64,000 bases of DNA from Basidiobolus meristosporus CBS 931.73. Lineage: Eukaryota; Fungi; Basidiobolomycota. This document shows positions 13,129-61,532 of the stretch, in pieces. Under the pieces are notes generated by a model. It was not told the DNA's origin. It saw only the letters and a program-made list of their open reading frames with translations, and made no database searches. Each line of letters starts with the position of its first letter. Position 1 is the first letter of the stretch. The stretch covers positions 1-64,000 of the forward strand of contig MCFE01000077.1 in assembly GCA_002104905.1 (NCBI GenBank). Reading direction: 5' to 3'. Both the position numbers and the translations under genes were made by a program.

Positions 13129-14054
13129 TTATGCTACCGATTGTAATTTCAATGACATCTCCCACTGGGTGAGGGTGCTCTGAAATCCCATCTGTTCAAG
13201 GAACCGGAGAAACGGTGACTCCTCTGGTTCGTTGAAGATTTGGATTTTCTCAGTGGTGCTTTGGACTTGTGACTTCAATATTCTGGCAAAATCTTGCGTG
13301 GTCGAATGAGCGGTTATCAACGAATCCAGGATCAGCACCTCCTTGCCGTCACATTTTACGAGAAGCCCTGTTTTTGGTAAGCCGAAAGAGTCTTTGATGG
13401 ACACAACGGTGTGGTTGCCAATTCTTGTCGTGAATGCTTGACGAGGCCAGCACATAGACATGTGATTCGAAGTCCACTGAGCATTGGTCCATGAAATTGG
13501 GGTTTCGAACACTTGCTCTTCTTCGCACTCCTCAGCAAGAAGCTCTTTCACGCCTAGATGGAAAGAGTACAGCTTTCGGCAGGGAAGGAACCCAATATGA
13601 GTATACAGCTTGTAGGCGGAGGTATTCTCTAGCATGCATTCTAAGTGCAGGGTAGCTATTTCAAGAGCGTTGGCCTGGCTTATCAACTCTTTCATCAGTA
13701 ATTGGCCTAAGCCCTTCTTACGATAATCCGGGTCAATAGCAAAACCAGCCACCCAGCCCTCTTTCCCACGAACGCCCAAATTCGTAAGGCCTATCGGGAG
13801 TTTCGCCTCGTTTACTTCACAAAGAGTACAAGTCAATAAAGGCCAAGCAGTTTCCGAAGCATATGGATTCGTAACTTACACATAACCACCCCACGTGCCA
13901 GGTCCACGTCATACCCTTTGACTAAGCCGGACAGCCCAGCAACGTCTATGGTCATGTCGCGGAAATAGCCCTTCCACGCGCGGTTATTAACCTCAACCAA
14001 CTCCTTCAAGGAATACTCCGAGGTGTTTACGAAAGTGAAGTTTTCCTCTGACAT
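13129..14054 (-). CDS. GNAT-family N-acetyltransferase, two-domain, bacterial-like; one intron
   Basis: Two ORF pieces join in frame through a GTAAGT...AAG intron (GVVM-LNEAKLPIG). Acetyl-CoA motif A AIDPDYRKKGLGQLLM and motif B LECMLENTSAYKLYTHIGF. Confidence 0.85.
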
Positions 14055-41185: not shown

Positions 41186-42139
41186 ATTGTTCTCCCCGTT
41201 TGCTGCTGTCAGTGCTACCTTTGTCAGAGGGGGCCACCCACCTCGTTTAAATAGGTACCGAAATCGTTGGGTCCACCACCCAGCCCTTCGTTGGTGATTG
41301 GTTGTTGCGTCCCTCGTCCCTGCTTCCGATCTCAATTTGGTGATTAAGGTCGTTTCGCTGCCAGGCGTGATGGGTGGATTTCGTTGAAGCTTGCGTAGGA
41401 TACCTACACAGTTACATTTGACGGAAGCTTCTTGAGAGCACGTCACCATTCAATGGCACCAGTACCAACCATTTGTACCACCAATAGACTGTATAGCTAT
41501 ATTGTGCCTCAAGATATATAGACAATGCTATGCTCCAGAAATCTCTTCTACACTAATACTAATCTCATCCTTACCCTTGATACATGGCCAGCTGCATAGC
41601 CATCCTGTTGTGTTTATAGCTCCTGTTGTAGAGGTGTGGGATTGGAGGGGGGCAGTGCTTGAAACTACCAGCTGCTTATCAAAGATTGAGATATGTTCTA
41701 TGACTGGATGCCTTACCCACCATTGTCCATGATGAATAGTTCACCAAGTTTGGTTTTTGGAAATGTTCCAGATTGCCAAAACAACCCATATCGCTGGAGA
41801 GATGGTGGAGATCAGAGGCTGAGATGGAAATTGACTAAAGTGTGAGAGGCGGCCACGAGCGGGGAAGGCTGTTGCCTCTTTACCTGTAACCCTAATATCG
41901 TCTCCAGAGCAGGCGAATGCAGAACTTGTACTATTGATCATCGTGTTAAGTGAAAAAGGAGGAAAAGTATAGGCTAGCGGCACGCAGACATTGTAACAAA
42001 GAAAAGCTGGCATGGTTCTTAGTCTGGCTTTATTCGAAGGCACATGGTGTTCAAACGGGATAACAGCACAGCGTGTGGAATTGAGCGAGTTTGAAAAAAA
42101 CGTGGACACGAATGCCCATGACTGCTGGGTAACCGGCTA

Positions 42140-43378
42140 CTATGCGCAAACAGGTTGGGCGTCTGGGAAGAAATCGGTACAAGTGTTGCTACAGCATAAC
42201 CAGGGTCTCCACTTTTCACAAGGACCACCGCTCGGTGTACACGACGGTACTTGGCATTTGCCAGACACACATACGTTACCATCACAGCAACCGATGTCGG
42301 AAGAGCTATCACAAGGATTACCGAGTGATACGCACAGCACTCGGCATGTTCCCCACAAACATGAAGTGTCCCCACAGCAACCAATGTTGAAAGGCCCACC
42401 ACAGAAACCACCATCTGGTGCACATGGCACCTGACATTTACCAGACACACACGTATTGCCATCGCAGCAACCGACGTTGGATGAACCGCCGCAGGAACCA
42501 CCGGCTGGAGAACATGGCGCTTGACATGTACCAGATACACATTGGTTGTCGTCGCAACAACCAGTATTGGAAGAACCGCCACAAGAGCCCCCGGCTGGAG
42601 AACATGGCGCTTGACATGTACCAGATACACATTGGTTGTCGTCGCAACAACCAGCATTGGAAGAACCACCACAAGAGCCCCCGACTGGAGAACATGGCGC
42701 TTGGCATTTACCAGACATACATATATTACCATCACAGCACTTTTGCTTGGGACTACAGGACTGGCCGAGAGGAGAGCATGCTGGTTGGCACTTGCCAGAC
42801 ACACACAAGTTGCCATCACAACACTTGTTTTTGGAGCTACAAGACTGACCGAGAGAAGAGCATGCCGGTTTACACTTACCGGACACACACAAGTTACCAC
42901 CACAGCACCAGTGGTTCGAACTGCAAGACTGGCCGAGAGGAGAGCATGTTGGTTGGCACTTGCCATACACACACGAGTTGTCATTACAGCACTTCTTTTT
43001 GGAGCTGCAAGATTGGCCGAGAGAAGAGCATGCCGGTTTGCACTTCCCGGACACACACAAATTGCCACCACAGCACCTACGGTTAGAGCTGCAAGACTGG
43101 TCGAGAGCAGAGCATACCGGTTGGCACTTGCCCGACATGCATGAGTTACCGTCACAGCACTTCTTTTTGGAGCCACAAGGCTGTCTGAGAGGAGAGCATG
43201 CTGGTTGGCATTTACTAGAGACACAAATAATATCCTTGGTGCATGGTTTAAGTGTGCCCTTGAAATAACATGCACCGTTGATGTTCAAGCACGGCTCTGA
43301 GGTAGATGCTGAGGCCTGCAAGGCGCTGACAGCCCAAACCCATACTGTTACTATGACAACACGGAGGTGGATCCTCAT
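42140..43378 (-). CDS. Secreted tandem knottin-like repeat protein, paralogue 1 (412 aa, 13 modules)
   Basis: Signal peptide MRIHLRVVIVTVWVWAVSA, one 5-Cys degenerate module, six 28-aa modules C-x6-C-x5-CC-x4-C-x4-C, five 30-aa modules C-x6-C-x7-CC-x4-C-x4-C, and one terminal C-x6-C-x7-CC-x3-C-x10-C. The ATG was chosen by conserved context with the paralogues; the ORF track's upstream start is a TTG. Confidence 0.9.
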   Translation of the reverse strand: MRIHLRVVIVTVWVWAVSALQASASTSEPCLNINGACYFKGTLKPCTKDIICVSSKCQPACSPLRQPCGSKKKCCDGNSCMSGKCQPVCSALDQSCSSNRRCCGGNLCVSGKCKPACSSLGQSCSSKKKCCNDNSCVYGKCQPTCSPLGQSCSSNHWCCGGNLCVSGKCKPACSSLGQSCSSKNKCCDGNLCVSGKCQPACSPLGQSCSPKQKCCDGNICMSGKCQAPCSPVGGSCGGSSNAGCCDDNQCVSGTCQAPCSPAGGSCGGSSNTGCCDDNQCVSGTCQAPCSPAGGSCGGSSNVGCCDGNTCVSGKCQVPCAPDGGFCGGPFNIGCCGDTSCLWGTCRVLCVSLGNPCDSSSDIGCCDGNVCVSGKCQVPSCTPSGGPCEKWRPWLCCSNTCTDFFPDAQPVCA

Positions 43379-43563
43379 ACCGTCGACTTGATTTGTGATG
43401 ACAAGTTGAGTATGCGGCACTATAAAGATCAGCGCAGTTAGCAATAACAAAAGAAAAATACGGCCGATGTTAAACGCCCTATGGACAGGAGGATGATGGA
43501 TCAACTAGGGTTTAGCGTGATGGTGTGCTGTGAGCTCTTGTGGAATTGGCAGAGTTTGGGAGA

Positions 43564-43749
43564 CTTTTTTATAGGAATCGTTGGGAGATTCTCTATGGAG
43601 TAGGGAAGTGGAATGCCCAACTGGTTTATAGCCAAGATGTAACGGTTGAAGGGAAAAAACCGTCTAGACATGGACTAACCGCCTTTGATCTAACCATATT
43701 CCCCTACTAACGACTTGATGGGAGACAGACCCGGTTTTGAATCTCGATT
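43564..43749 (-). promoter_or_regulatory. Putative promoter of paralogue 1: TATA box plus conserved upstream block
   Basis: TATAAAAAAG on the minus strand (43564-43573). The block AACCGC.TTTGATCTA.CC...CCTACTAA.GAC...GGTTTTG.ATCTCGATT (43677-43749) is shared with the paralogue 4 upstream region. Confidence 0.6.
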
Positions 43750-44329
43750 TTGTGTTAGCCCGTGTTGGTTTGTATCCGGAGTCAGCTTCAATTAGGTTGA
43801 TTACCAGCGGAATGGAGACGAAAACTGGGTACGCCAGCAAAGGTCATCTAAATCATCAAGGGGGGGGGGGCATCCTCCTGGTTGGAAGGGACGTGGTACA
43901 AATTTAACGCTTAAAGAATCCGATTTGGGAAAACCAATATCAATGATGGGTTGTTGACTGAATCAAGTTGGGGAGGGACCACTAGGGTGTATGTTGTAAC
44001 TGTAGTCCCCGTCTTACAGGCGTAAGATTGTGATCTAGTCTATGACTGGAAGCCTTACCAGTCCTTGCCTGTAAAAATATGGTACGGTTGATGCGTGAAA
44101 TCTAGTCCTTAGTGCTAGCAATCCGTCGCAATTACGGGACAAGATGCCAATTCCAATAGCCCCTGCTGATTATTTGTCCATTATCCTCCTGGCCACCTTC
44201 CCACTAAAAGTCCTTTTTGTACTCCAATAATCAACCGGAATTTGGTCTTCTTTCTCAACAGTGTAGAGCCAATATAGTTGACAGACTTACTACACCCCAC
44301 CCAGATCCCTGATTATGGAACGTTGAACA

Positions 44330-44971
44330 TGCGCCGGGATCTCCCAAATCACAAGGACCGCCACTCGGTGTACACGTGACTTGACATGTCCCCGACACAC
44401 ATATGCTACTACCATAACAACCGATGTTAGAACCACCACCACACGAGCCACCGGCTGGTGCACATGGCGCTTGGAATTTACCAGATACACATGTATTGCC
44501 CTCACAACACTATCGTTTGGAGCCACAAGCCTGGCTTAGAGCAGAGCATGTCGGTTGACGTTTACCAGGCACACAACTGTAGCCATTACAGCACTTCTGT
44601 TTGGTGCTACAAGTATGACCGAGAGAAAAGCATGCTGGTTGGCGCTTTCCAGACATGCACAAGTTGCCATCGCAGCACTTGTTTTTGGAGCTGCAAGACT
44701 GACCGAAAGGAGAACATGCCGGTCGGCACTTGCCAGACACACAATGGTAGCCATCACAACACTTCTTTTTGGAGTTATAACACTGGCCGAGAGGAGAACA
44801 GACTGGTTGGCATTTACCAAACACACACAAGTTGCCGTCGCAGCACTTGTGATTGGAGCTGTAAGGCTTCCCAAGCGCAGAACATGCCGGTTGGCATTTA
44901 CTAGAAGCCTCCAAAGCGCTGACAGCCCAAGCACATACTGCTAATATTACAACAAGGAGGTGGGCCTTCAT
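44330..44971 (-). pseudogene. Knottin-repeat paralogue 2, pseudogene
   Basis: Signal peptide MKAHLLVVILAVCAWAVSA. In-frame TAG at 44510-44512 where paralogues have a Lys-type codon, and the frame continues with B and terminal modules. Several framework Cys are replaced (Y, R, R, F, Y) and the last module breaks off after GACS. Confidence 0.85.
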
Positions 44972-45058
44972 ACTGTCGACCTGATTTGCGATAGCAAGCC
45001 GAGTATGCGACACTGTAAAGAGCAGAACTATTAGTAGTGATCCTATTAACAACGGACA

Positions 45059-45240
45059 AAGGCTGTTACTGCTTTATGTATAGCCTTAGTACCATCTTCA
45101 GGGCAGGGGACTGCTTGATTCGTACCATTGATCATCATATTGTCAAGTGAAAAAGGCCGTAAACTATAGGCTAGCACCATGTAGATTTTATAAAAGCGAA
45201 AGGCTAGCATATTTCTTAGTCTGCCTTTATTTAGAGACGT
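45059..45240 (-). terminator. Conserved 3' flank of the knottin genes, including an AATAAA poly(A) signal
   Basis: Homologous to 41865-42040 and partly to 46960-47040. AATAAA (minus strand) occurs at equivalent positions 42029-42034, 45226-45231 and 47025-47030. Confidence 0.55.
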
Positions 45241-45290
45241 GGATTTCAAAAGGGATATCGGCACAGCATGAGGAACTGAGTGGGCTACTA

Positions 45291-45806
45291 TCAGGCGCAA
45301 ACAGGTGGGGCAGGAGGGTTGAAATTGGTGCACGTAAGGCTGCAGCACGCCCCGGGGTTGCCCAAATCACAAGGACCACCGCTCGGTGTACACGGTGCTT
45401 GACATGTACCAGATACACAAGTGTTACCACCACAACAACCGATGTTGGAAGGGCCGCCACAGGAGCCACCAGCTGGTGCGCACGGCACTTGGCATGTACC
45501 AGATACACATTCGTTGCCATCACAGCACTTACTATTGGAGGGACCACCACAGGAGCCACCGGTTGGTGTGCATGGCACCTGACATATACCAGACACACAT
45601 GTGTTGTCTTCACAGCACTTGCGTTTGGAGCTACAAGATTGGCCTAGAGGAGAGCATGCTGATCGGCATTTGCCATACATACATGAACTGCCCTCGCAGC
45701 ACTTGTGTCTAGAGTTACAAGAATGACCGAGGGAAGAGCATATTTCCAAAGCGCTGACAGTCCAAAGACATACGGCCACTATCGCAACAAGGGAATAAAT
45801 CTTCAT
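45291..45806 (-). CDS. Secreted tandem knottin-like repeat protein, paralogue 3 (171 aa, 5 modules)
   Basis: Signal peptide MKIYSLVAIVAVCLWTVSA, then 2 A, 2 B and 1 terminal module; all framework Cys intact. Confidence 0.88.
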   Translation of the reverse strand: MKIYSLVAIVAVCLWTVSALEICSSLGHSCNSRHKCCEGSSCMYGKCRSACSPLGQSCSSKRKCCEDNTCVSGICQVPCTPTGGSCGGPSNSKCCDGNECVSGTCQVPCAPAGGSCGGPSNIGCCGGNTCVSGTCQAPCTPSGGPCDLGNPGACCSLTCTNFNPPAPPVCA

Positions 45807-47091
45807 ACTATCGACTTATTTGTGAAGGAATAAGGAGCTAGACGATGGAAATGAAGAGGACTCTATGTATTGAAGTGGAGAGTTTCGGCGACTCATTTAT
45901 AGTGACTATCGGGAGGTTTTTCATGCAAGTGGAATATACGATCATTTTCTTGCTGCTGTGCAGGTGCAAAGATTCAAGGGTGACAGTATTGTCATTGTAC
46001 AGCCTCTTTTGATCCAACCCTTTTTTGCCTACTAATGACTCAGGAGACCAAACTAATTTTGCTTTGGTGCTATCCCACAATCTTTCATGCATTGCTCCCC
46101 AGGTTTTCGGTAACATGGTGTAAGCTAGATTCAGGGGAGGGTTTTTCGATAATAAAGATATGTTACTAGTATTGTTCTGGGAGTGAAATGTCCGCATACT
46201 CTCCCTGATTGTTACCCACGTATTATGGTTTCGTACCTTCGCGGGATTGTTGCTATGCCAAATGCTGTCCTTAACATTGTTGTAGACGCTCATTGATCCT
46301 ACGCTGTGGGATACCCCCAAAGACCATGGTGACCAGCAATATTTTTTTCTGAAGCATATTGATTCGTTAAGTATACAGGCCCTCATATATTCTTTTTCTC
46401 TGTAAAATTCCAACTTGATCAACCCTATAATATTCACAAAAGTGTTAAGCCTAGCCATCATCTATTCGAAGAGTCTTCAGCAAAGTAGAATTTGTGCTGG
46501 TTTTTTAACGGAGCATTATGAAGCATATTGCAAAGAGATGAACACTACCAGAAAATCCAAGAATAATCAGATTCTGAAGCTTTCAATAGAGTATACTAGG
46601 TGCTACACAATCCGAAAAAAATCCCTAAATTTTGAGGAGACTCAAGAGCAGGAGCAGCGATGACCAAGCGTGATAGGACTGCTGCAGGTTAGCTTTCGGA
46701 TGAAGATCAATTACCAAGCATACGGCCAATGCAAAGTGGTTCAGAGGTGCTAATACCAAGCCCAGAGCTCTGGTGCAGTTAGTCAAGAACTCAGGTTTGA
46801 GGAGCTGTAATTAGCTTATTTTGATAGCTCCAGTCGTACAGGCATGAGATCCAGGCACTATCCAGTTGACCAAGCATCATACACCTCTCCACATACCTTA
46901 ACTTAAGTATCTTCAATAAAAGATGCGGATTTCACCCTTAGTCAATTAAAAAAGGTCATAAACAATAGGCCAGAGGTGCACAGGTTCTATGAAAAGGAAA
47001 GGCTAGCATGTTTCTTAGTCTGTCTTTATTTAAAGACATATGGATTCCAAAAGGGATATCGGCACAGCATGAGGAACTGAGTGGGCTACTA

Positions 47092-47775
47092 TCAGGCGCA
47101 AACAGGTGGGGCAGGAGGGTTGAAATTGGTGCACGTAAGGCTACAGCACGCCCCGGGGTTGCCCAAATCACAAGGACCACCGCTCGGTGTACACGGTGCT
47201 TGACATGTACCAGATACACATGTGTTACCACCACAACAACCGATGTTGGAAGGGCCACCACAGGAACCACCGACTGGTGCGCATGGCGGTTGGCATTTTC
47301 CTGACGCACATGTATTTCCATCACAGCACTTTTGTTTGGAGCTACAGGTCTGACCAAGAGGAGAGCATGATGGTTGGCACTCACCATACACACATGAGCT
47401 GCCGGCACAACACTTGTGCTTGGAGCTACAAAACTGGCCGAGAGGAGAGCATGCTGGCTGGCACTTGCCATACACACATGAGCTACCGTCACAGCACTTG
47501 TGCTTAGAGCTACAAGACTGACCGAGAGGAGAGCATGGCGGCTGACATCTACCAGAAACACACCGATTTCCATCACAGCACTTGTTCTTTGAGTCACAAA
47601 AACGACCGAGCGCAGAGCATACCGGCTGGCATTTACCATAATTGCACAAGTTTCCATCACAGCACCTGTCTCTGGAGCTACAAGAATGACCAAGTGCAGA
47701 GCACGCTTGCTGGTATCTTCCAGACACAGTCCAAAAGCATACCGTCATTACTACAACAAGGAGGCAGAGCTTCAT
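47092..47775 (-). CDS. Secreted tandem knottin-like repeat protein, paralogue 4 (227 aa, 7 modules)
   Basis: Signal peptide MKLCLLVVVMTVCFWTVSG, then 5 A, 1 B and 1 terminal module; all framework Cys intact. Confidence 0.9.
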   Translation of the reverse strand: MKLCLLVVVMTVCFWTVSGRYQQACSALGHSCSSRDRCCDGNLCNYGKCQPVCSALGRFCDSKNKCCDGNRCVSGRCQPPCSPLGQSCSSKHKCCDGSSCVYGKCQPACSPLGQFCSSKHKCCAGSSCVYGECQPSCSPLGQTCSSKQKCCDGNTCASGKCQPPCAPVGGSCGGPSNIGCCGGNTCVSGTCQAPCTPSGGPCDLGNPGACCSLTCTNFNPPAPPVCA

Positions 47776-47860: not shown

Positions 47861-48027
47861 CTTTTATAGTAAATTAAGAGATCTCTTATGCAGGCCGGGG
47901 GGGGGAAGAGTGTGCAACCATATTTTAGCCAACGTGCAACAGGTAAGAATGAGCAACCGCTTTTGATCTAGCCAAGTTTGCCTACTAATGACCGGATTAG
48001 AGACCATTTGGGTTTTGGATCTCGATT
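47861..48027 (-). promoter_or_regulatory. Putative promoter of paralogue 4: TATA box plus conserved upstream block
   Basis: TATAAAAG on the minus strand (47861-47868). The block at 47955-48027 is homologous to 43677-43749. Confidence 0.6.
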
Positions 48028-49080
48028 AATCTTTTGGTTGTGGCGAAGATTCCAATGGCAGTATCCTCCGAGACATATGCAGTCTAATTTGATGTAGGTG
48101 GAATTGAGGAAACTTAATGCGAATGATATCTTGGGGTTATTGGTTTGTGAATGCTACGTAGACTGGCGCCATATTATGTATGATTGCTATTGGCGAAACT
48201 GCATTTGTTGTCTCAAACCTCACATGGTGGCCGCCAGGACAAATACTGTCCTGTGAGTAATTCAGGTGATGCAGCAGTCATCCTTGAAAATTTCGCCCTA
48301 TAGGCTAGCCGAAAGAAGTTGGAACGACTGTTACCATCAGAAACCAATGAAACTGTATTTCTAGGGCTATCGGTGTGTTCATTTACTGACTGTTATATGC
48401 CACCCAGGTTTCACAGCGCCTGGCTTAAAACATGCTACAACACATTGCTATCTAGCATGATATATGCATAGGCCTAAAGTGATTGAACGGAATACCTTTA
48501 TTCAACCTAATTTGTGATAGTGTCGCAGGCTAACCATACATATACTTGCAAAGATGTGATCGACATCACATTCACACCGAAGAGCTCAGTGATCAGTACA
48601 TAAGGCAGTACTCTATTTAATACCTCATTGTCGGATCTCACATGATATCCTGCTGGTATTCAGCTGGTGTTTTCCCTTATTCTGTTAGTTGCAAATACTT
48701 GTAGGAGTAGTGAATAGCTGATTACCAATTTCGGTAGGTGGGTCATTACCCTTACTACCTCCTTGACAATGCGTCTTCTTGCTAGCCAAATAGCTAAAAC
48801 CCAAGATACTAGAAGTTGTGATTTGACCAGGCTTGGACTTATGATCATTTAATGCTGTCATTCTACTGACCTTTGGTTAGTTTCCTTTTATAGGGAAATA
48901 AGAAATATCATGTTCCTCATTATAACAATGACCCCAGCTCTTTTAAGAAATCCTCCCATTTTACTTTCAAATAATGTTGTTGGCTGCTTGCTTCCTCCAG
49001 ACATCTGTCATAGCTGATAATATGTACATATTAGACTTGGTCTACTGGATAGTCCCACATAGTTGCAGGCAGTCTATACA

Positions 49081-52000
49081 CCCTATGAAGAGTAATTGCA
49101 GTGATTCTGTCAAAAGGCTGTTACAAGATTTGAATCCCATGACTAAGAGGTAGTGATGCTATCAGGATACTGCGCAAAAACAATCAGAAAAAACTAAACC
49201 TCAGATCTCACAAAAACCTTAGTCAAAGTTTTTCATTGTAGCAGTCCCAAGGTTGCCTTTAATTGGTCACTGCCATTTCTCCCACTTTCTGATTCCTGAC
49301 ACTCAATCATCTCTTAAATTTGTTTACATTGATTGGCAATTGCCTCTTTTGACACTGCTTATTTCCTGACTCGGCTAGTGTGCTTACTTTTCATGCATTA
49401 AATTGTTTACTTATGTTGCATCTGTAGTTGTGACTCAATTGTAGACTGCACTGACCTATACAAGTTCCAACACCCAACACTAACATTAGGCCCAACCACA
49501 CACTCAATCAGTAACTCCATAGGAATATACTGTTGAAGATGCACCTCTGCCATAACATCCTTTGCCCAAGACTTTGATGGGAGCCCTGTGGCAATATGTC
49601 ATTATTAGTTCACTGGTTCTTCTACATCCTGGTCTTCAGCCAGCACTGCAAGGCTTAGCAGTTCATTGGCAAGTCTAGGTTAACAGCACTAATTGGTCAG
49701 AACTGCAGCTTTTTCCTCATGCTTCTCTGTTTCTGGCTTGGGTAGGCTTTTTCTCCTATACCTATACCTTTATCATTGCCAGGTCTTTCATTGCTACATT
49801 GACTGATTGATTCTTGTATAGTGCTCTGTTTTCTCCTTGATAAATGCTGCACTGGTGCATCTGTTTGGTCTGCTTGTTGCTTACCAGCATTCTTCTAGCT
49901 ACTTGACATTTTGATGCCACATGCTATGAGATTTCAGCCATGCTTGTGACAGGTTCCTGAGGAAGCTGCTGATTTTTATTGCTGCCAGGTCCTTTACCAC
50001 TGTTTTGACTGAGTGCTTCTGGAATTGTACTTGCTTTTTTCTTTGTTAAGTGCTGCACTGGGGGATCTGTTTCTGCCTACTTGTTTCTTGCTGGCACTCC
50101 TCTGGCTACTTGATGTTTCTCTACCACTTAATTGGAGCTTTCAGCACTGCTTGTAATGGGCTCTTGAGAAAGCTGCTGGTCTTTAGCTGAGAAACCCTTG
50201 TTCCTCTACCTTTGATAGTTTCTACTATTGTTGAGTTATTTACTGATAAGCATTCTGTCCTGACCAGGCTTCTTGTTGGAATTTACTTGGAACATCTTCA
50301 CCAAATTATCAGGTACTCAGATTATGATCTTTCTCAAAGTTGTCCAAAGCCCTCCAAGCTTTGCACACATATTCTTGAGACCTTCCTTAACAGACTCTGC
50401 ATATTTGTTTGCCCTACTTTATCAAAAGTATTAATATCATACCTTTGATCAATAAATCTACAATCAAATAAAATGTAAATCCTCTAGTTCTCCTCATCAC
50501 TTCCAATACTCCTTAGAATATTGCAACAACCAACACTGGTGGTGGTAATGATATAATAGACTTGTTCCATTGGATAGTGCCACATTGAGTCATGAGTGCC
50601 AAATGATGCCATAGTGTGCCAGGGAGGCCAAATGAGCCTATATGTAGCCACAGAGTGTGAAACAGAGCTCTGCATTTTGATGCAAAGCTGCCCCTGTGTT
50701 TCACTCATTGTGTTGGAGATAATCCATTTTTTGACCTTTTTTTTTAGGTCAATGTTGTGCAGGATGTGTAAGAGCATAGAAGAACTGAAGACATGCATCA
50801 TGTACTCAATACCCATGACACTCTGAATCTAGCTCCTGTGGCTTGTAGCATGTCACAAAAATGTATGGCACTATCTTGGTCCACTGGTACTATCTGGTAC
50901 TATAATTGCTTTGTATGAATCTTACTTTAGGGCAAATAATTACAATATAGTGCCAGATAGTACCAGTGGACCAAGATAGCGCCATGCATTTTTGTGACAT
51001 GCTACAAGCCACAGGAGCTAGATTCTGAGTGCCATGGGTATTGCATAACTGATGCATGTCTTCAGTTCTTCTGTGCTCTTACACATTCTGCACAACATTG
51101 ATCCCCAAAAAAACATCAAAAAAATGGATTGTCTCCTACATCATAGGTAAAACACCGGGGCTGCTTTGCATGAAGATGCAGAGCTCTGTTTCACACTCTG
51201 TGGCCAAGTATAGGTTCATTTGGCCTCTCTGGCACACTATGGCATCATTTGGCTCTCATGGCTCAATGTGGCACTATCCAACAGAGCAAGTCTAATAGTT
51301 GTTGGCCATTCTTGCATTGGAGGTACTGCATTTGCTACATTCTCATCTGAATGAGCATTGTGGTCAGCTTGCAGCTCCACAGAGACTCTCAGTTACTTAA
51401 TTGGCCAAGTGTCCAGAGGGGTCCACATTACTATATTCAGTGAGAACACTGTCAACATGGCCTTCTTGGATGTAGTCCTACTAGTTGCACTCAGTGTCAT
51501 ATTACTCTCTGGCTGCTGTCTGCAGCAAGGTTTGGTTGGAAACCAGGCAGCTTTGGGTTGTTTTTTGGTGGCACATATATAGAAGCAGGTCAAACCAAAG
51601 GGGAAGTGGTGATGCATATATGCATGGATGTAAAAACACAGCTTTGTCTATAATGCTTACTATTGTTGGACACCATTGAATCCTACACTCATATAGGTAT
51701 AGATCTCTCAAATACAAGACTATCCCAAGCTTGCATTGATATTCACAAATATGTGATGTAAGAGTGTTATGTTGCTGAATATCCAGCTTACCAACAGCTT
51801 GATACATCTATCTAAGCACCTAACCACACTGATCACCTTGCTCAGACAAGATCAAGTGAGTTTGTGATGTCTTTTGGCTGCCTGCAGCCTTCTAAGCATG
51901 GCCCATACAGTAGCAGCTCTAAAGAAGAAGGCTCACTAATGCATTGAGAGCTTATCTCCCCACATAAGTGTACCAACCTTGAGACCATTCAAGTCCTAAT

Positions 52001-52560
52001 ATGTGATGAGACAAAACCCATGACTGAAAATGCCAAGGATACCTAATGGAATCAAGTTACCCTAGTGATCCATTTACTGGTGAGTGACTCAATACTGTGG
52101 CTAGAGAAGTGGAGTGCTTCCACTAATATCAGTAATGGAGGCATTGAGAATTTACTGTTACATCTTGCTAACATCATTTCAGGATGCAATGTACCATGCA
52201 TATGTTAGGTATAGACACAAGGCAGGAAGAGTAGAGCTATGCAGGGCAGGACTAGGAAAAGACATGTGTATTGATCAACAAAGTAAAGCTGTTTATTCAA
52301 GGCCTGTGTTTATCAGACTGAGGGATGCACAATGGGAGTTTGGACTATATCTGCCTTTTGGAAATATGGTTACCAAAAGATGTTTGATGTCCAGTGGGGA
52401 TTGTGTTTCAAGCCCATATAATAGTGAGCCTGCTATCACATTTCTTCCCACTTACCATATGATTGGTGACAGACTCAGGTTGATGAGTGTTAGTGACTGG
52501 CAGTACTTAATGCCTGATTATTACTGAGTGTGACACTTTATTGCTTGAAAATATCTGTTT
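49081..52560. mobile_element. Degenerate CACTA/CMC-type transposon copy: left end, second-ORF remnants, N-terminal transposase remnant
   Basis: Starts CCCTATGAAG. 49081-49700 is homologous to 61533-62300, 51310-51800 to 55500-55980, and 51850-52400 to the transposase 5' part at 56230-56750. Interrupted by the foldback element. Confidence 0.7.
50559..51292. mobile_element. Foldback / MITE-like element, 734 bp, with about 346-bp inverted arms
   Basis: 50559-50904 is the reverse complement of 50946-51292 (mostly transition mismatches) around a 41-bp spacer. Termini GACTTG...CAAGTC, flanked by TAATA on both sides. Confidence 0.85.
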
Positions 52561-52930
52561 GACTGCATCAAATCTTTATGTATGGTATTACTAGAGCATA
52601 TATGGAATATGAAACACATTTTCTTCTGTGGAGGTATCTTTTTACTAATTAAAGATATTGTAAAGAAGCAATGTGCACTCTATTTATATCACACAAGTAC
52701 TGACACATCCCAGTTTCAGAATGCTCTTCAAGAGATATAGTGCCTACTGCATTATTTGCTCTTTATTTGTATTGTGTAGGTGGTAAGTTGCAAACCAGAA
52801 TGACTTTTACAAAAAGCAACGCTAAATTCTGAAGCCCCCATCACTGATAAAGGTGGAACAGCTTCACTTCTCTAGCTGGTACACCATATCAAGGACCAAC
52901 CCATGGATTACTATGCCCACTTGGCTCTAT

Positions 52931-55155
52931 CCCTATGAAAGATAATTTGGTCCCACAGACAGATTCAGTCTGGATCAGCTGTCAGGATCCTCTTCAGAGA
53001 CAATCATAATGCCAGCAACTTGAAATTAGTGACCCTCTTGATGATCTTGTGATGGAATCACATCAGCATTTTGCTGATTTTATTGCCATATAAAGTTATA
53101 AAACTTGATGGGGTTTGATTGGTGCAGTGACAATAATTGCATGGCATTGTTGTGGTCTTGATGCTATTTACAACTATCTTCAATGGATCTAACCAGCCAG
53201 GACATCCAATTGCCCTATATGGCAAAAAACTAGATGGTATATTAACAGCCACAAAGCAAGACTCTGATGACATAATTGCAGTGGTATAGCAGCCTAGAGC
53301 TAGTTTGGTATAATGCTACCATACCAATTTACCAAATGGTATTTCCTTTTTCTACCTCCCCTTATGCAATTCATATATTTCACTGTAGAATCACCCCTCT
53401 TTATTAGCTTACCCACTACTATCTTGGGTATTCCACATATAGTTCCCTATGAAAAATAATTGGGCCCCACAGGTGGATTTAATTTGGATCAGCTGTCAGG
53501 ATGCTGTTCAGAGACCATCATAATACCAGCAGCTTGGAATTAGTGACCCTCCTAACAATCTTATAATGGGATCATGATGGTGTTTTGCTAATTTACAACC
53601 AAATAAAGGGATAAAACTTGACAATATTTTATTGGTGCTGTAACAATCTTTGCATGGTATTGTTGCAGTCTTATAGTGCTCTACAACTATATTCAGTGGA
53701 TCCAGTCAGCCAGGACATCCAGTTGCCTTATATGGCAAGAAACCTGCTGGTATTTCAACAGCCTCACAGCAAGACTCTGATGGCATTATATTGGCAGTGT
53801 GACAGCCCACTGCTGTTTCTGTAGAATGCAACCATACCAACTTACCAAATGGTATTTCCTTTTCTACCTCCCCTTGTGCAACTCATATATTCCATTGTAG
53901 AATCACCCCTCTCTATTTACCTACCCACTACTAACTTATGTATTCCACATATAGTTTGAATCAAAAAAAAACTATGGCCTCCTGCTTACTAACCTCTACA
54001 AACACGCACACCTGCTGCAATTGACATACTTCTATCACTTCAACTTTACAGCTTTATAGTGTGATACTTACAAAGTTGCCAGTTACCTTGTACTGCTGGT
54101 AACATATACATTTTGCAAACATATGCTTGGTTGCTGCTGCTTCTGCTATGAATACCTCCTGAACATCTGCAAAGAACTTCCTGGTATTGAGCCAATATAT
54201 TCCTCCTCCCTGCTGGATTCTAGTCCCCCTTATGGATGTGCTCTGGCTTTTGTTTGTGTGAACCCCATATTAAATGGTGTAGAAGTTGGCTTATGAGTAT
54301 GAGAAATACAGCATATATTGGTAGAGTGTTCCTTATAGAAATTAGTTGCTTGTTGCACCCAACCCAACTTTGCATTACCTAACTAATTACCCATGCATTG
54401 GGGCTGCTTAGCTTCCTAATGCCATAGGCATAGGTGTCTCCAGGTTCACATTTGTCCTCAGTATTTCCCAACTTTTCCTAGCTGTCCTCCATGTGCCAAC
54501 TCATCACATCCATGATGGACTTGAAGGAAATATTCTTGATGAGATAGGGATATGGTAGTACCTGCAACTTGACTTGTCTTCCTATCTCCCCACACATTGC
54601 TCCAAAAGAAACTGCCAAAAGGTGAGGTAAGGTCCAATATTCTCCACACACCATGCAAGATGGAGTAGAGAATGGATACAGTAGCAGCAGAGATCTACAT
54701 GTTCAGCTTTATGCTTGTAGTATAGCCGCTCAAATCTCATCACAAACTCCTCACACAGCAGCTGTAGATGCGTCAAGTTGGCATTGGTGATCCACTTCTG
54801 AATAAATAATCCTACAATGTCCATATATGACTCCCAATGCTTCCAATGTCCTCTTGGGAGGAATGGCTTCAAAACACCACTTGAATAAATACATATCCAG
54901 CTCATCCAGTCCTTGCATTTGTATTCTGTATATGCATATGAATATTAATTGGATCCCATGCGAGGTACTTAAGGTAGCGGATACTCTGTAATATCTTGCC
55001 AATTCTTTCAAATTTCTCCGGTATCTCAAAAGACTCATTTAGCTTTAAATGCCCCATATACAACTTGGTCATCAGTATAGGGATATTGTTGAAAAGAAAA
55101 TGCATTGCTCCCAGTGGAAAGCTTTTGCTCCAACAAATACCTTCTATCTTAAGTC
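52931..55155 (-). mobile_element. Two nested minus-strand right-end fragments of the same transposon family, including the transposase C-terminal (DUF4218-like) part
   Basis: CCCTATGAAA termini at 52931 and 53445. Translation FVMRFERLYYKHKAEHVDLCCYCIHSLLHLA..VENIGP. Reverse-complement match to 57430-59498. Confidence 0.8.
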
Positions 55156-55178
55156 TATCTGAGGCTTATCTTTGGGCA

Positions 55179-55772
55179 CTATTGTTGTGCTTCAATGACT
55201 GAATGGTGTTCCTTTGATGTTACATTAGGAAATAGCTCAATTCTTGGCTTTGAAATTAAGCTACTTGGGTTCCTTCTTTGCAGCAAAAATACTGCTTTCT
55301 CTACCTGAGATATTGATGGCCCTATATGTAATATCTGCTCATCCTGTTTCTGGACTATTTCCTGAATTCTCAGGGCCGTTGCATCTATCCTAACTGCCAC
55401 TGCACCTAATTGCTTCATTAATGCTTTGGTATGAGCTGACAAAATACTATCTAATATGGGTGGTGGTGATGTTATTATGGCCACTTGCTGATCTTCAACT
55501 GAGGGTACTGCATTTGCTACATTCTCATCAGCCTGAGCATAACGGTCAGCTTGTGGCTCCATGGGGGTTATCAATTGCCTACTTGACTGAGAGCCTGAGA
55601 AGTCCGCATTATTACCTTCAATGGGCACACTGTCCACAGGGCCTTTTTTGGATGTAGCCCCACTTGTTGCACTGAATGTCAAAGCAAGCTGTTGTCCAAC
55701 AGTTCTTCTGTTGCCATCAGCAATGGGGTTTGGTTGGGAACCAGACAACTTTGCTTTATTTTTTGGCAGCAT
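55179..55772 (-). pseudogene. Second (accessory) ORF of the transposon, divergent from the transposase
   Basis: 197-codon remnant with a coiled-coil-like segment. Homologous minus-strand remnants occur at about 51300-51600 and 63200-63900. Confidence 0.55.
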
Positions 55773-55987
55773 ATATGTGGAAATGAGTCAAAGCAAAGGG
55801 GAAATAGTGTTACATGTGCATGTGTATGTGGTGCCACAACTTTATCTATAATGCTTGCTATAGCAGGTCATCATTGAATCTTACATTCATTTAGGTGCAA
55901 TGTCTCAAATACAAGACTGTCTTAAGTTCATGTGAGTATTGACCAAAAAGTGATATAACAGCATCACATTGTTGAAGGTCAAACTGT

Positions 55988-58900
55988 TTGCACCATGGAC
56001 AACACTATTTGATTCAATGCTGCAAGAGAAGAGAAAAAAGACCATGTGGCTATTGTTGCAGGCCTCTCAGCCATGAGGCATGCAGACAGTATAGGAAGTA
56101 TTACAAGGATCACAACCAGTGTTTTGCCACCCAAGTCATATCTGACCACTCATTGGTCACTACAGTACCAACATCATCTTGCCTGCCAGTTGATACTTCT
56201 GGTTGTCTTTCTAACCTTGTGCAAACAGAGTCAGGTGAGTTTTTGATGCCTTTAGGCTCACCTCAGCCTTCTGAATATGGCATGCAGAGTGATAGCTCTG
56301 ACAAAGAAGGTTTACTGATGGATTCTGAGCCTATCTCTCCTAACAACAGTTCCACATATGATCCCAGTCAAGTCCCTATATGCAATGAGACAACACCCAT
56401 GGAATCAAGTGCTAAGAATACTTTATGGAGCCAAGTGAGTCCAGTAAGCAATCTACTGGTGAATGATGTAATGTTTTGGCTAGAGAAGTGGTGCATTTCT
56501 ACTAATATCAGTAATGGGGGCTTTGAGGACTTATTACTACTTCTTGCCCAAAACATACTGGAATGTAACTTACAATGTACATGGTACAAGTGGACAACCA
56601 TCATGTGGCTGGCAATGTATTATCCAGAGACTGTCCTGATTGCAGCATGTGTTAACAGTTGCATTGCATTCACATACAAGAATCCTACCATTGTAACATG
56701 TCCAAATTGTCAGAAATCCACCACCATTAAGGGAAAACATTGTTCACACTCTGGATGTATTCTGGTTATACCCCTTCTGAGGAAGCTGATGCAGTTCAAA
56801 AAATATTGCAAACCTATTTGGTACTGCATTCAGTTTCAATCAAGTGCAAACATATCCAATGTAATTGATGGCAAACATTACAAACAGCCAAGAAGCAAGG
56901 GCTACTTTGAAGGTATGTATGACCATGCCTTTGCTTTAGCACTTGATTGATTCTCATTAAACAAGTACTCTACCAGCACATCCTGCTGGCCACTGATTCT
57001 CATTGATCTGAATATACTGCCCATCTTACAGTATCAGAGCAATAATCTGATGGTAGTCTCACTAGTGTCTGGGCCTAAATGACCATCCAACCTGGATAGC
57101 TACCTATATCCATTGCTGGATGAGTTTTATATGCTTTCCAGCAGGGTAACAGTAAATAGCCATCATGTAACAGCACATATTATTATTTGTATTGGAGACA
57201 CCCAGCCATCAGCAAGATAGCAGATTTTTCCGGGCACAATGGATGATATTGCTGTCAAGTGTGTAAGATCCAGGGGACTTACTCCATAACTCACACACAT
57301 TATTATTACCCAAGCACCAGCACTAAGAACATCATCTTTCCACAGAGAGAACATACAGAAGCCAGCATGCAATTACAGCAAAGTTGGCAAGTTATCAGCC
57401 ATTGGCCAGAATATGGAATCAATGGAAACTAGGGATACTTAAGATGTAAGGTATCTGCTGGAGCAAAAGCTTTCCACTGGGAGCATGGCATTTGCTTTTC
57501 AACAATATCCCTGTACTGATGACCAAGTTGTACATGAGGCATTTCAAGCTAAATGAGCCCTTCAAGATACCAGAGAAATTAAAAAGAATTTGCAAGATAT
57601 TACAGAGTATCTGCTACCCTAAGTCCTTCTTATGGGCTCCAATTAATATTCATATGCATATGCAACAACTCAAATACAAAGACTGGATGAACTGCATATG
57701 TATTTATTCAAGTGGTGTTCTGAAGCCATTCCTACCAAGAGTACATTGGAAGCATTAGGAGTCATGCATGGACATTGTAGGAATATTTATCCAGAAGCAG
57801 ATCACCAATGCCAACTTGACGCATCTACAGCTATTGTGTGAGGAGTTTGTGATGAGATTTGAGCGGCTATACTACAAGCATAAAGCTGAATGCATAGATA
57901 TATGCTGCCACTGAATCCATTCTCTACTCCATCTTGCACAGTGTGTGGAGAATATTGGGCCTTGCATCAAATTTTGGGATTTTCCTATGGAGCAGATGTG
58001 TGGGGAGATAGGAAGACAAGTCAAGTTGCAGGTACTACCATATCCCTATCTCATCAAGAATATTACCTTCAAGTCCATCATGGATATGATGAGTTGGCAC
58101 ATGGAGGACAGCTGGGAAGAGTTGGGAAATGCTGAGGACAAATGTGCACATGGAGACACCTATGCCTATGGCATTAAGAAGCTAAGCAGCCCCAATGCTT
58201 GGGTAATCAGTTAGGAAAAGCAAAGTTGAGTTGGGTGCAACAAGCCACTAATTTTTATCAGGAAAACTCTACCAAGATATGGGGGATCTCTCATGGCCAC
58301 AAGCCAACTTCTACACCACTCAACATGGAATTCACACAAACAAAAGCTGGAGCACACCTATAAGGGGGACTAGAATCCATCAGGGAGGAGGAATATAGTG
58401 GCTAAATACCAAGAAGTGCTTTGTGAATATCCAGGAGGTATTCATGGCAGAAGTGGCAACAACCAACCATATGTTTGCAAAATGTATATGTTACCAGTGT
58501 TGTAAGAGTCTTGGAGATATTGGAAGTGATTTGGAGAACAAGTAGATTATGTGATTTTCACTTAATGATTTATTGAATGTAAAAGTAGTATTTATACTTT
58601 TACCTGGTCTTGGCATTACAAACACGTAGAGTAGGTTAAGGAAGATCCCAAGAACACGTGTGCAAAGTTTGGGGCTGTTTGGACAACTTTGAGAATTTTT
58701 ATGTTCTGGGTACCTGGTATTTTGGTGAAAATATTCTAAGTAAATCCCAACAAGGAATTTGGTCAGTATTCTCTAGGATTTAAAGGTGATGATCTAAGTG
58801 ACTAAGTTAGGTGAACATTTAGGTGGAATTATGAATTTTTACAACAACCAGCACTACAAGGTATATGGCAACTTTGCAAGTATCACACTAAAAAGCCGTA

Positions 58901-59498
58901 ATGTTGAGGTGATAGGAGTATGTCAATTGCACAGGTGTGTGCATTTGTAGAGGTTAGTAAGCAGGTGGCCATAGTTGTTTTGATTCAAACTATATGTGGA
59001 ATACCATTGGTAGCAGTGGGTAAGTAAATAAAGAGGGGTGATTCTACAGTGGAATATATGAGTTGCACAAGGGGAGGTAGAAAAGGAAATACCATTTGGT
59101 AAGTTGGTACGGTAGCATTCTACAGAACCAGCTGTAGGCCGTCATACTGCTGGTATAATGCCATCAGAGTCTTGCTGAGAGGCTGTTGAAATACCATCAA
59201 GTTTCTTGCTATACAAGGCCATTGGATGTCCTGGCAATTGGATCCACTTAAAATAGCTATGGAGCACCAAAAGACCACAACAATAGCATATAAATATTGT
59301 CACAGTACCAATAAAATCTTGTCAAGTTTTATCCCTTTATATGGTTGTATATTAGCAAAACACCGTCATGATCCCAACATAAGATTGCTAGGAGGGGCAT
59401 TAATTCCAGGCTGCTGGTATTATGATGGTCTCTAAACAGGATCCTGACAGCTGATCTGGAGTGGGTCCACCCATGGGACCAAATTATTTTTCATAGGG
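55988..59498 (+). mobile_element. CACTA/EnSpm-like Tnp2 transposase pseudogene and right terminus
   Basis: ACVNSCIAF...TCPNC...IPLLRKL...ISNVIDGKHY...ALALD*FS...CWPLILIDLNILP...SGPK*PSNLDSYLYPLLDE...IGDT, then IHSLLHLAQCVENIGP...FPMEQMCG. Ends AATTATTTTTCATAGGG at 59498. Confidence 0.85.
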
Positions 59499-59559
59499 CT
59501 GTTTCTCTTACTTCTCATACATACTAATTGATTTATTTCCGTTGATACTTTAGTTGTAC

Positions 59560-60500
59560 CTAAATTGCCAATTATATAGACCTAAGCAAGTCCATACACT
59601 CTACACTAACATACATTATTATTACCCAAACACCAACACTAAGAACATCATCTTCCCAGAGAGAGAACATGCAGAAGTCAGCATGCAATTGCAGCAAAGC
59701 TGGCAATCTATAAGCTGTTGGCCAGAATATGGAATCAATTGGAAACCAGAGATACTTAAGAAGGAGGGTATCTGTAGAGCAAAAGCTTTCCACTGGGAAC
59801 AATGCATATTCTTTTCAACAATATCCCTATACTGATGACCAAGTTGTACATGGGGCATCTCAAGCTAAATGAGCCCTTCACAATACTGTAGAAATTTGAA
59901 AGAATTGGCAAGATATTACAGTGTTCTGACAACCCTAAGCACTTCACACAAGCTCCAATTAACATTCATATGCATATGTCAAAATACAGGGGCAATTACG
60001 GATGTGCTGGATAAGTATTTATTCAAGTTAGCAAAATGCTATTGTAATCTGGTAATAAGATTGTCAAGAGGACCACTAATTCAAAGCTGCCGGCAATTTG
60101 ACAGTCTGGATACAGGATCCCTAGAGCTGGTCTGGATCAGATCCACCAGCCAGACCAAATTAGTTTTCATAGGGGAAGTGATTGGGAGAACAAGTAGATT
60201 ATATGCCTTTCAACAAGTAATTTATTGAATGTAAAAGTAATGTTCATACTTTTATATAGTCTTGGCATAGCAAACATGTAGAATAGATTTAGGAAGGCTC
60301 CACTAACATGAGTGCAAAGTTTGGGGCTGTTTGGACAACTTTGAGAATTTTCATGTTCAGGGTACCTGATATTTTTGAAAAAATGCTCTGAGTAGTTCCC
60401 AGCACAGAATTTGATCAGTATTCTCTAGGATTTGCAGGTGATGATCTAAGTGACTAATTCAGGTGAATATTTGGGTTGAATCACAAATTTTGCAACAAAA
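59560..60500 (+). mobile_element. Internally deleted further copy or copies of the same family
   Basis: 59560-60030 is homologous to 57250-57720. Right terminus TTTTCATAGGG at 60174, followed by sequence homologous to 58525-58850. Confidence 0.75.
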
Positions 60501-61532
60501 TATACCTCCCACAGACAAATTTATCTTATAAGTATTATGGTGCACTTATCCATATTTTATTTAGCAGCCTTATCCCATTCTTTTTTACCCATATTATTAA
60601 TATGATCCATATATGATGTTCACCCTGATTAGTTATTAGTATTAGTTGTCCCAGATGCTATTTATCATTGCAATCAGTATATGTGTCTACATTAGGCATA
60701 TACCTGCATCAGTACCTGTGACACCTGACCTAGGTCTGTGTAACCATCCCTACCATTTCAATACCATATATGGTATCTCTATGATACACACATTTCAGGC
60801 TACTTATCCTTGATTGGTTGGAAGTGCTGTGTATTTTAGAACCTTCCAGGCCCTTTTTAGATTGTTTTTGGCCTGAAGTGATGTCATTGAGAATTCCACT
60901 AATGCCTGGATCATCTAGAACCTTGCCATTAGTAAGCACTTGGTAATCAGGAAAAGTATTCAAGGGAGATCAGTCCCATATCAGTAAGTCATCCTTTCTA
61001 TCAGTAATACTTTCACCTTATTGATTGGCAGTTCATCACTGCACCTACCTTGAACATTTACACCTCAGACCTGCCAACAAGGTGCTTTTCAGGGTAGTGC
61101 ACAAGACACACAGAGGTTTTTGGAGACACTTGGGGAACCTAGGAAGCTAGAGAAGCAGGTGCTTCTACCACATGGACATAGTGATAATGACAACAGCTGT
61201 TAAGGCGCAAAAGTGATTGCACCCATCAGACGCCTCAAACACCATAAACTGTGAGCTTCTCCCAGAAATACTTCTCACCACCACACTTCCTTTTCTTCCA
61301 TTGCCATGAGCTCATCACATATCATCTTGCTGGTTGCATACTGGATACAGCTGTGAGAGGAATTAGACATATAAGCCATCAATGAGCCTTGGTTGTAGGA
61401 GCTATTGTTGTATGTGTCTTTTTTGGAAGGCTGAGGTGAAATATAAGATGCTCAGATTCACCCTGCTCAGCATATGCAAGGTCTCACATGTGGGTAGGTG
61501 ACATTACAGAAATATCATGCGGACAACATTAT

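What the first reader, a model, noticed from the sequence alone, without database searches (positions are those of the whole stretch)
42140..47775. Tandem cluster of secreted multi-knottin (ICK-like) repeat proteins: candidate undescribed fungal toxin, adhesin or effector system
Seen: four co-oriented, intronless paralogues in an otherwise intron-rich genome. Each has a signal peptide followed almost entirely by six-Cys modules joined by 3-residue linkers (QPA, QAP). Module counts are 13, pseudogene, 5 and 7. Established: C-x6-C-x5/7-CC-x3/4-C-x4/10-C is the inhibitor-cystine-knot framework of spider and cone-snail toxins, and a tandem bivalent ICK toxin (DkTx) gains avidity from linked knots. 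Inference: these are multivalent disulfide-rich rods that bind a repetitive or oligomeric target such as arthropod or nematode ion channels, membranes, cuticle or chitin, or that act as a spore adhesive. I recognise no named fungal family with this architecture. The cluster lies at the border between housekeeping genes and a transposon nest, a typical effector location.
Basis: partly seen in the sequence, partly recalled or inferred. Interest (0 to 1): 0.88.

Follow-up and report, generated by a model that had tools for sequence, protein, structure and literature searches.

The report
Fungal string-of-knots secreted protein family
A Basidiobolus fungus carries three intact genes and one broken gene for proteins made of 5 to 13 small cysteine modules in a row, predicted to be secreted strings of cystine knots that likely grip microbial or gut surfaces at many points rather than act as nerve toxins, and their last module is also found, up to 88% identical, in bacteria and other fungi.

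Summary
On the minus strand of a Basidiobolus window lie three intact, intronless genes (412, 171, 227 aa) and one broken copy. Each has a signal-like start and then six-cysteine modules in a fixed order: cationic A knots, Gly-rich B knots, one terminal T knot. Knottin (ICK) folding is well supported but only predicted. The Pfam Dickkopf_N hit covers just the half of that domain that is itself a solved ICK. The genes are under purifying selection (dN/dS about 0.3-0.4 without cysteines) and keep TATA and poly(A) signals. No close relative was found among 1.84 billion representatives, so they appear unannotated. The neurotoxin reading is weak: the modules are almost free of tryptophan and are not hypervariable. 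Arrays with the same spacing are common in bacterial proteins with lipoprotein-, Tat- or sortase-like signals. The surprise is the T knot: 79 relatives in bacteria and fungi, nearly always at the C-terminus, including fusions to PqqD/RRE leaders. Best reading: a protease-resistant, multivalent surface-binding protein (0.45). It is a new, unnamed variant of the known class of secreted cysteine-rich repeat proteins. Expression and function are untested.

The parts
42140..43378 (-). Gene 1, intact, 412 aa: signal-like start, five-Cys lead module, 6 A knots, 5 B knots, 1 divergent T knot; 77 Cys (odd number)
43205..43288 (-). Five-Cys lead module of gene 1 (one Cys predicted unpaired); the same five-Cys module is in homologue P0258
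42704..43198 (-). A block of gene 1: six cationic modules C-x6-C-x5-CC-x4-C-x4-C
42254..42694 (-). B block of gene 1: five Gly-rich neutral to acidic modules C-x6-C-x7-CC-x4-C-x4-C
42146..42241 (-). Terminal T module of gene 1 (C-x6-C-x7-CC-x3-C-x10-C), diverged from those of genes 3 and 4
44324..44971 (-). Gene 2, broken copy: in-frame stop at 44510-44512, each of its seven modules has lost or displaced a cysteine or is cut off, and it lacks the upstream block shared by the intact genes
45291..45806 (-). Gene 3, intact, 171 aa: signal-like start, 2 A, 2 B, 1 T
45297..45392 (-). T knot of gene 3; same protein sequence as in gene 4; member of a family shared by bacteria and fungi
47092..47775 (-). 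Gene 4, intact, 227 aa: signal-like start, 5 A, 1 B, 1 T
47098..47193 (-). T knot of gene 4
43568..43573 (-). TATAAA upstream of gene 1, aligned with those of genes 3 and 4
45896..45901 (-). TATAAA upstream of gene 3
47863..47868 (-). TATAAA upstream of gene 4
42029..42034 (-). AATAAA downstream of gene 1, aligned with those of genes 3 and 4
45226..45231 (-). AATAAA downstream of gene 3
47025..47030 (-). AATAAA downstream of gene 4

Best explanation
These genes encode chains of 5 to 13 six-cysteine modules, predicted to be secreted, uncut strings of cystine knots that likely work as multivalent surface-binding proteins (agglutinin, adhesive or coat) in the protease-rich gut, dung and litter where Basidiobolus lives. 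Shown: the module order A(n)-B(n)-T, the charge of each block, purifying selection, and a conserved terminal knot. Predicted: signal peptide, ICK fold, one chain. Inferred: the Lys-rich A knots hold on to polyanionic surfaces (bacterial envelopes, mucus or the fungus's own wall) by avidity; the Gly-rich B knots act as a spacer; the T knot is the specific binding head. The spare cysteine of gene 1 would allow dimers or covalent tethering.
For: The order A-B-T is the same in all four copies. A modules have a mean net charge of +2.2, B modules -1. 24 of 24 full modules keep all six Cys while synonymous sites diverge (dS 0.83-0.93); dN/dS without Cys is 0.29 for A (bootstrap 0.15-0.50) and 0.39 for B (0.21-0.68). 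No dibasic pair lies in a linker, and gene 4 has none at all. In 67 of 78 scorable relatives the last T-type knot starts within 45 residues of the C-terminus; it follows a Thr/Ser/Pro-rich stretch in 11 of 48 non-RRE cases. A small Cys domain on a stalk is the layout of binding modules (established knowledge). Arrays with A/B spacing sit in proteins with lipobox-like (40 of 138), Tat-like (14) or LPxTG (7) signals by rough patterns, i.e. proteins likely displayed on surfaces. Basidiobolus is described as an insect-dispersed herptile gut symbiont and litter saprotroph (PMC9391592, passages).
Against: No ligand is known for any of the three modules, and no characterised homologue was found. The modules lack the aromatic platform of known sugar-binding knots (11 aromatics in 21 A/B modules). 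There is no GPI or membrane anchor: each protein ends one residue after the last Cys. The divergent, Trp-containing T knot of gene 1 shows that the head can change. Conservation inside the T family is partly an artefact of searching with its own profile. Pairwise dN/dS values are not independent.
Confidence: 0.45

Rival explanations
1. Antimicrobial knottin array: the cationic knots kill or stall competing bacteria or fungi in gut and dung, like plant and arthropod antimicrobial knottins.
For: The A block is cationic. The T-knot profile weakly matches a plant antifungal knottin (1dkc, E 1.3), and antimicrobial knottins appear among fold matches (2dcw Z 2.7, 2mfs Z 2.3). Fungal knottin-like effectors have been proposed to act against microbes (PMC9632046, passages). 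In 2 of 2 bacterial loci scanned, the RRE-fused T knot lies beside an HprK-like kinase and a nucleotidyltransferase, as in peptide natural-product cassettes.
Against: Little hydrophobic surface for membrane insertion; the B and T knots are neutral or acidic. Synthetic single-module peptides of the mussel MgCRP-I family, which also has tandem forms, showed no antimicrobial activity (PMC4558851, passages).
Confidence: 0.2
2. Multivalent toxin against arthropod or nematode ion channels, like DkTx or Hi1a.
For: Most fold matches are venom knottins, including the double knots DkTx and Xt3a. The T-knot profile matches omega-atracotoxin-Hv1a at E 0.003 over profile positions 5-28 of 39. Pfam Conotoxin_I2 passes its cut-off in 2 of 4 sequences. 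The fungus is insect-dispersed.
Against: All fold scores are weak (no E <= 0.001; Z <= 4.2), and the PDB's knottins are mostly venom peptides, so this shows fold only. The atracotoxin match covers only the N-terminal scaffold. There are 2 Trp in 21 A/B modules, whereas gating-modifier toxins rely on aromatic patches (recalled). Selection is purifying. There is no acidic propeptide, and 5-13 domains far exceed the two of the characterised bivalent toxins (PMC9885460, passages). The T knot is just as conserved in soil bacteria and mycorrhizal fungi.
Confidence: 0.12
3. Multi-headed inhibitor of host digestive or microbial enzymes (proteases, amylases) that helps the fungus survive gut passage.
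For: The top fold match of the T knot is the spinach trypsin inhibitor SOTI-III (Z 4.2, rmsd 1.8, 33 aligned), with an amaranth amylase inhibitor lower down (Z 2.2). Tandem disulfide repeats often act as multi-headed inhibitors (PMC9885460).
Against: Z 4.2 is tied with toxin rows (within 1). The long last loop of the T knot has no Lys or Arg, and the usual reactive position of loop 1 in A modules is Pro, Ala or Ser (reactive-site positions recalled).
Confidence: 0.1
4. A decaying or silent cluster beside a repeat nest, with no present function.
For: One of four copies is broken. The proteins are absent from the protein collection although a neighbouring gene is in it.
Against: Purifying selection, 24 of 24 intact Cys frameworks, and aligned TATA and poly(A) signals in 3 of 3 intact genes. 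A full-architecture homologue, 50% identical, exists in another source.
Confidence: 0.08

Closest known systems
SCREPs, secreted cysteine-rich repeat proteins (ScrepYard, PMC9885460; passages seen)
   Same: Signal peptide, tandem homologous disulfide domains, short fixed linkers, presumed avidity.
   Different: The fungal examples named in the passages are chitin-binding and CFEM domains; no fungal ICK array was seen there. Here three knot types lie in a fixed order.
multi-MgCRP-I of Mytilus (PMC4558851; passages seen)
   Same: Tandem six-Cys modules 2-4 residues apart, in one exon, cationic, gene-duplicated, function unknown.
   Different: 2-4 modules, a propeptide and positive selection there; synthetic single-module peptides folded 1-2, 3-4, 5-6 and were inactive. 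Here 5-13 modules, no propeptide, purifying selection. No homology shown.
Bivalent ICK toxins DkTx, Hi1a, Xt3a
   Same: Predicted ICK domains in tandem on one chain.
   Different: Two domains, venom products, channel targets. These proteins are aromatic-poor and have up to 13 domains.
Dickkopf CRD1 C-subdomain (Pfam PF04706; PMC6078440, passages seen)
   Same: Identical spacing x6-x5-CC-x4-x4 to the A module; solved disulfides C66-C80, C73-C85, C79-C90; basic surface.
   Different: No four-Cys N-subdomain and no CRD2; not a Wnt regulator.
Fungal single-knot effectors Avr9 and MLP124266 (as cited in PMC9632046)
   Same: Secreted fungal cystine-knot proteins.
   Different: Single domains from plant pathogens; no sequence match was found in the searches run here.
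Unnamed bacterial Cys-repeat exported proteins (Myxococcota clusters in the ESM Atlas; MXAN_6577-like family NF041328, matched below cut-off by P0023)
   Same: Long tandem runs of the same six-Cys spacing; some end in a T-type knot (P0260, P0063).
   Different: Lipoprotein-, Tat- or sortase-like signals; about 30-50% identity driven largely by Cys and Gly; uncharacterised.
Marasmius oreades E1B28_013768 (P0247)
   Same: Signal-like start, two cationic knots, then the same T knot (42% over 77 columns).
   Different: Only three modules; hypothetical protein, unstudied.

Membership tests
Inhibitor cystine knot (knottin) | Six-Cys framework C-C-CC-C-C with loops of knottin length | tested here: met
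   24 of 24 full modules
Inhibitor cystine knot (knottin) | Knottin backbone fold with a C-terminal beta-hairpin | tested here: inconclusive
   AlphaFold models (pLDDT 66.9 and 83.0) match ICK peptides at rmsd about 1-2.5 A over 26-35 residues, but no E <= 0.001 and Z <= 4.2
Inhibitor cystine knot (knottin) | Disulfides I-IV, II-V, III-VI forming a true knot | not testable with these tools
   The tools print no disulfide pairs. Inferred from the identical spacing of Dkk4 CRD1; the framework alone can mislead
SCREP | Signal peptide | tested here: inconclusive
   Hydrophobic 19-23 residue start in all four copies, judged by eye; no predictor run
SCREP | Two or more homologous cysteine-rich domains in tandem | tested here: met
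   Modules of one type are 61-97% identical in DNA
Dickkopf proteins | Full ten-Cys CRD1 and a CRD2 | tested here: not met
   Best matches cover only profile positions 21/25-51 of 51
I2-superfamily conotoxins | Eight-Cys framework (recalled) | tested here: not met
   Six Cys per module; the match covers positions 1-32 of 38 and runs into the next module
Bivalent ICK channel toxins (DkTx, Hi1a) | Activity on ion channels | not testable with these tools
   Needs electrophysiology
Bivalent ICK channel toxins (DkTx, Hi1a) | Aromatic-rich membrane-binding patch (recalled) | tested here: not met
   2 Trp and 11 aromatics in 21 A/B modules
Hevein/CBM18 and CBM1 sugar-binding knots | Three conserved aromatic residues per module (recalled) and a Pfam match | tested here: not met
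   0-2 aromatics in 20 of 21 A/B modules and 3 in one; no such Pfam family at E <= 1
Mini-granulin fold | All inter-cysteine loops only 2-4 residues (PMC11035057) | tested here: not met
   Loops of 6 and 5-7 residues
Kex2-processed repeat proteins | Dibasic cleavage sites between repeats (recalled) | tested here: not met
   K/R pairs occur only inside modules; none in gene 4

The most novel reading that the evidence does not exclude
The T knot is an undescribed knottin family shared by bacteria and fungi that recognises one ancient, conserved target. Bacteria deploy it as the core of RRE-leader peptides beside HprK-like kinases and on stalked surface proteins, and Basidiobolus mounts it as the head of a long cationic multi-knot scaffold to capture or control microbes in the gut and dung.
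Probability: 0.25. Interest if true: 0.75.

Novelty: new variant of a known kind. Interest (0 to 1): 0.5.

Why it matters
If the fold is right, these are long natural knottin arrays in an early-diverging fungus and a ready-made model for how many knots fold and gain avidity on one chain. They seem to be missing from the public gene set. The terminal knot matters more: a 32-residue knottin kept at up to 88% identity between bacteria and fungi points to a conserved target, while knottins are usually described from animals, plants and fungi only (PMC6078440). It is small enough to synthesise and test directly. For Basidiobolus biology it gives candidates for the gut-survival, microbe-interaction or sticky-spore proteins.

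Tried and rejected
No whole genome is held for this window, so copies elsewhere in the genome and synteny were not examined. No RNA holder was listed; this says nothing about expression. A metagenome scan with the full protein found 51 pattern matches and no confirmed relative. Viral contigs (15 pattern matches, none confirmed) and plasmids gave nothing for the T knot. The ESM Atlas gave only leads under 0.9 (best 0.84 and 0.85), with no structure search. NCBIfam had no family for P0001 or P0003. The PDB sequence search of P0003 gave one weak hit (E 0.094). Horizontal transfer from bacteria was considered and is not supported: best T-knot identities are 28 of 32 for hits from unnamed sources against 27, 26 and 25 of 32 for Dentiscutata, Racocetra and Rhizoctonia; GC is 0.52-0.53 against 0.46-0.51 and GC3 0.45-0.47 against 0.49-0.61 in four flanking genes; no tree was built because 32 residues carry too little signal. 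dN/dS for the T knot (3 sequences, 0.77-1.16) is uninformative. A spore-glue role was looked for in the literature: 2 papers listed, neither read. No complex prediction was run, as no partner is known. Literature searches for a described family found none: (open-licence library only; listings seen; supplements not read, and supplements of ScrepYard or zygomycete secretome papers could list these proteins).
Full report
What is there. The minus strand holds three intact single-frame genes at 42140-43378 (412 aa), 45291-45806 (171 aa) and 47092-47775 (227 aa), and a broken copy at about 44324-44971 with an in-frame stop at 44510-44512. After a hydrophobic start of about 19-23 residues (judged by eye), each protein is made of six-cysteine modules joined by 3-residue linkers. 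There are three types in a fixed order: A (C-x6-C-x5-CC-x4-C-x4-C; 13 copies; mean net charge +2.2), B (x6-x7-CC-x4-x4; 8 copies; Gly-rich; mean -1) and one terminal T (x6-x7-CC-x3-x10). Gene 1 has an extra five-Cys lead module, so its Cys count is odd. All 26 pattern matches in the window lie in this cluster; 100 shuffles gave none.

Organism and setting. The thiolase at 23239-24432 is 94% identical to that of Basidiobolus ranarum and at most 79% to any other listed hit, so the window is from a Basidiobolus. To the left lie Ecl1-, EAP30- and PRKCSH-family genes. To the right is a low-GC block of decayed repeats with no Pfam match above cut-off. The thiolase is in the public collection; the three knot proteins are not, and a full HMMER read of 1.84 billion representatives gave no hit at E <= 1e-30. 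I infer that the public annotation missed them.

Are they working genes? Probably. All 24 full modules in the intact genes keep six cysteines while synonymous sites have diverged (dS 0.83-0.93). dN/dS without cysteines is 0.29 for A and 0.39 for B, with bootstrap ranges 0.15-0.50 and 0.21-0.68 (pairs are not independent). The three intact genes share an aligned TATAAA upstream and AATAAA downstream. The broken copy lacks the shared upstream block and has a damaged framework in each of its seven modules. A partial homologue from an unnamed source (P0258) shares the signal and the five-Cys lead module at 50% identity over 113 columns. Expression could not be examined.

Fold. Pfam gives Dickkopf_N above cut-off in 3 of 4 sequences and Conotoxin_I2 in 2 of 4, each over only part of the profile. 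The matched half of Dickkopf CRD1 has the same spacing as the A module, disulfides C66-C80, C73-C85, C79-C90, and is described as structurally homologous to ICK toxins (PMC6078440, passages). The single-sequence model of gene 3 (pLDDT 66.9) shows a hairpin in each A and B module and matches knottins weakly (for example protoxin-1, rmsd 1.1 over 28 columns, E 1.8; none at E <= 0.001; Z <= 4.0). The T-knot model from 50 sequences (pLDDT 83.0) gave 48 matches at Z >= 2 among 48,161 chains, mostly ICK peptides, the best being SOTI-III (Z 4.2, rmsd 1.8, 33 aligned). The rival mini-granulin fold goes with loops of 2-4 residues (PMC11035057, passages), which these modules exceed. ICK is therefore likely, but the disulfides were not read out.

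Relatives. The T knot has 79 relatives at E <= 0.01: 8 named fungal proteins (Glomeromycotina, Basidiomycota, Ascomycota), 2 named bacterial ones, 15 with a precomputed PqqD domain, and the rest unnamed or hypothetical. 12 GTDB loci came from Chloroflexota, Rhizobiales, Pyrinomonadaceae, Binatia and others. In 67 of 78 scorable hits the last knot starts within 45 residues of the C-terminus; best identities are 28 of 32. In fungi it follows a signal and often a Thr/Pro-rich stalk. In the two RRE-type loci scanned (L003, L011) it neighbours an HprK-related kinase (below cut-off) and an NTP_transf_5 protein; a third RRE-type locus (L008) showed no such neighbours by eye and was not scanned. Arrays with A/B spacing are also common: of 138 new hits, 40 have runs of four or more modules, and rough patterns find lipobox-like, Tat-like and LPxTG signals in 40, 14 and 7. 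Of 10 hits looked up, 3 clusters carried a name: Marasmius oreades, a spittlebug and an amaranth member. The Marasmius protein has two cationic knots followed by a T knot.

How it likely works. The chain is probably not cut, since no linker carries a dibasic site. A string of stable knots with a cationic front, a neutral middle and a conserved head at the end fits a multivalent surface binder suited to gut, dung and litter, the habitats reported for Basidiobolus (PMC9391592, passages). I put this at 0.45. Killing microbes (0.2), channel toxicity (0.12), enzyme inhibition (0.1) and decay (0.08) are the rivals; about 0.05 is left for other roles. Against the toxin reading: 2 Trp in 21 A/B modules, purifying selection, no propeptide, and equal conservation of the head in soil bacteria and mycorrhizal fungi. 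For it: an E 0.003 profile match to the N-terminal part of omega-atracotoxin-Hv1a. Against my own reading: no ligand, no aromatic sugar platform, no anchor.

Comparison and novelty. The proteins fit the SCREP class (PMC9885460, passages) and resemble mussel multi-MgCRP-I in layout (PMC4558851, passages). They are not Dickkopf proteins, I2 conotoxins, hevein or CBM1 lectins, or Kex2-processed repeats. Searches of the open library found no description of this family or of the T-knot motif; supplements were not read. Verdict: a real, apparently unannotated family, a new variant of a known kind, interest 0.5. The cross-kingdom T knot is the part most worth following.

Noticed in passing
L003:2353-3102, L006:2575-3105, L011:2638-3102, L008:2551-3189: Bacterial genes that fuse a PqqD/RRE domain, a twin-arginine-like leader and one to three T knots; in Mesorhizobium and Devosia they neighbour an HprK-like kinase and an NTP_transf_5 protein, suggesting a peptide-modification cassette with a knottin core. 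No paper found.
   Followed up: partly
proteins P0030, P0009, P0021, P0054, P0044, P0051, P0058, P0081: Small fungal proteins (Rhizoctonia, Gigasporaceae, Pisolithus, Sphaerosporella, Podospora, Tothia), 7 of 8 with a signal-like start (P0021 is partial), most with a Thr/Pro-rich stalk and a single terminal T knot; all hypothetical.
   Followed up: partly
window 45142-45741 and 46941-47536: Genes 3 and 4 share the same T-knot protein sequence and an 83% identical 3' block including the flank, which points to recent duplication or gene conversion.
   Followed up: partly
window 43379-43450 and 44972-45045: The 5' regions of genes 1 and 2 share about 65-70 extra bases, absent from genes 3 and 4, that read in frame as a second hydrophobic stretch without an ATG; possibly a remnant of a duplicated signal or just a T-rich UTR.
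   Followed up: no
window 49000-64000: Decayed multi-copy repeats with long inverted arms (for example 54096-54597 and 57996-58497, 90%) and a hairpin at 50554-51297; weak DUF4218 hint, possibly CACTA-like (family link recalled).
   Followed up: partly
window 13129-13875: A single open frame of 248 codons that looks by eye like a tandem GNAT acetyltransferase of bacterial type among housekeeping genes; not scanned.
   Followed up: no
protein P0263: A contig from an unnamed source encodes what looks like a frameshifted relative of these genes.
   Followed up: no
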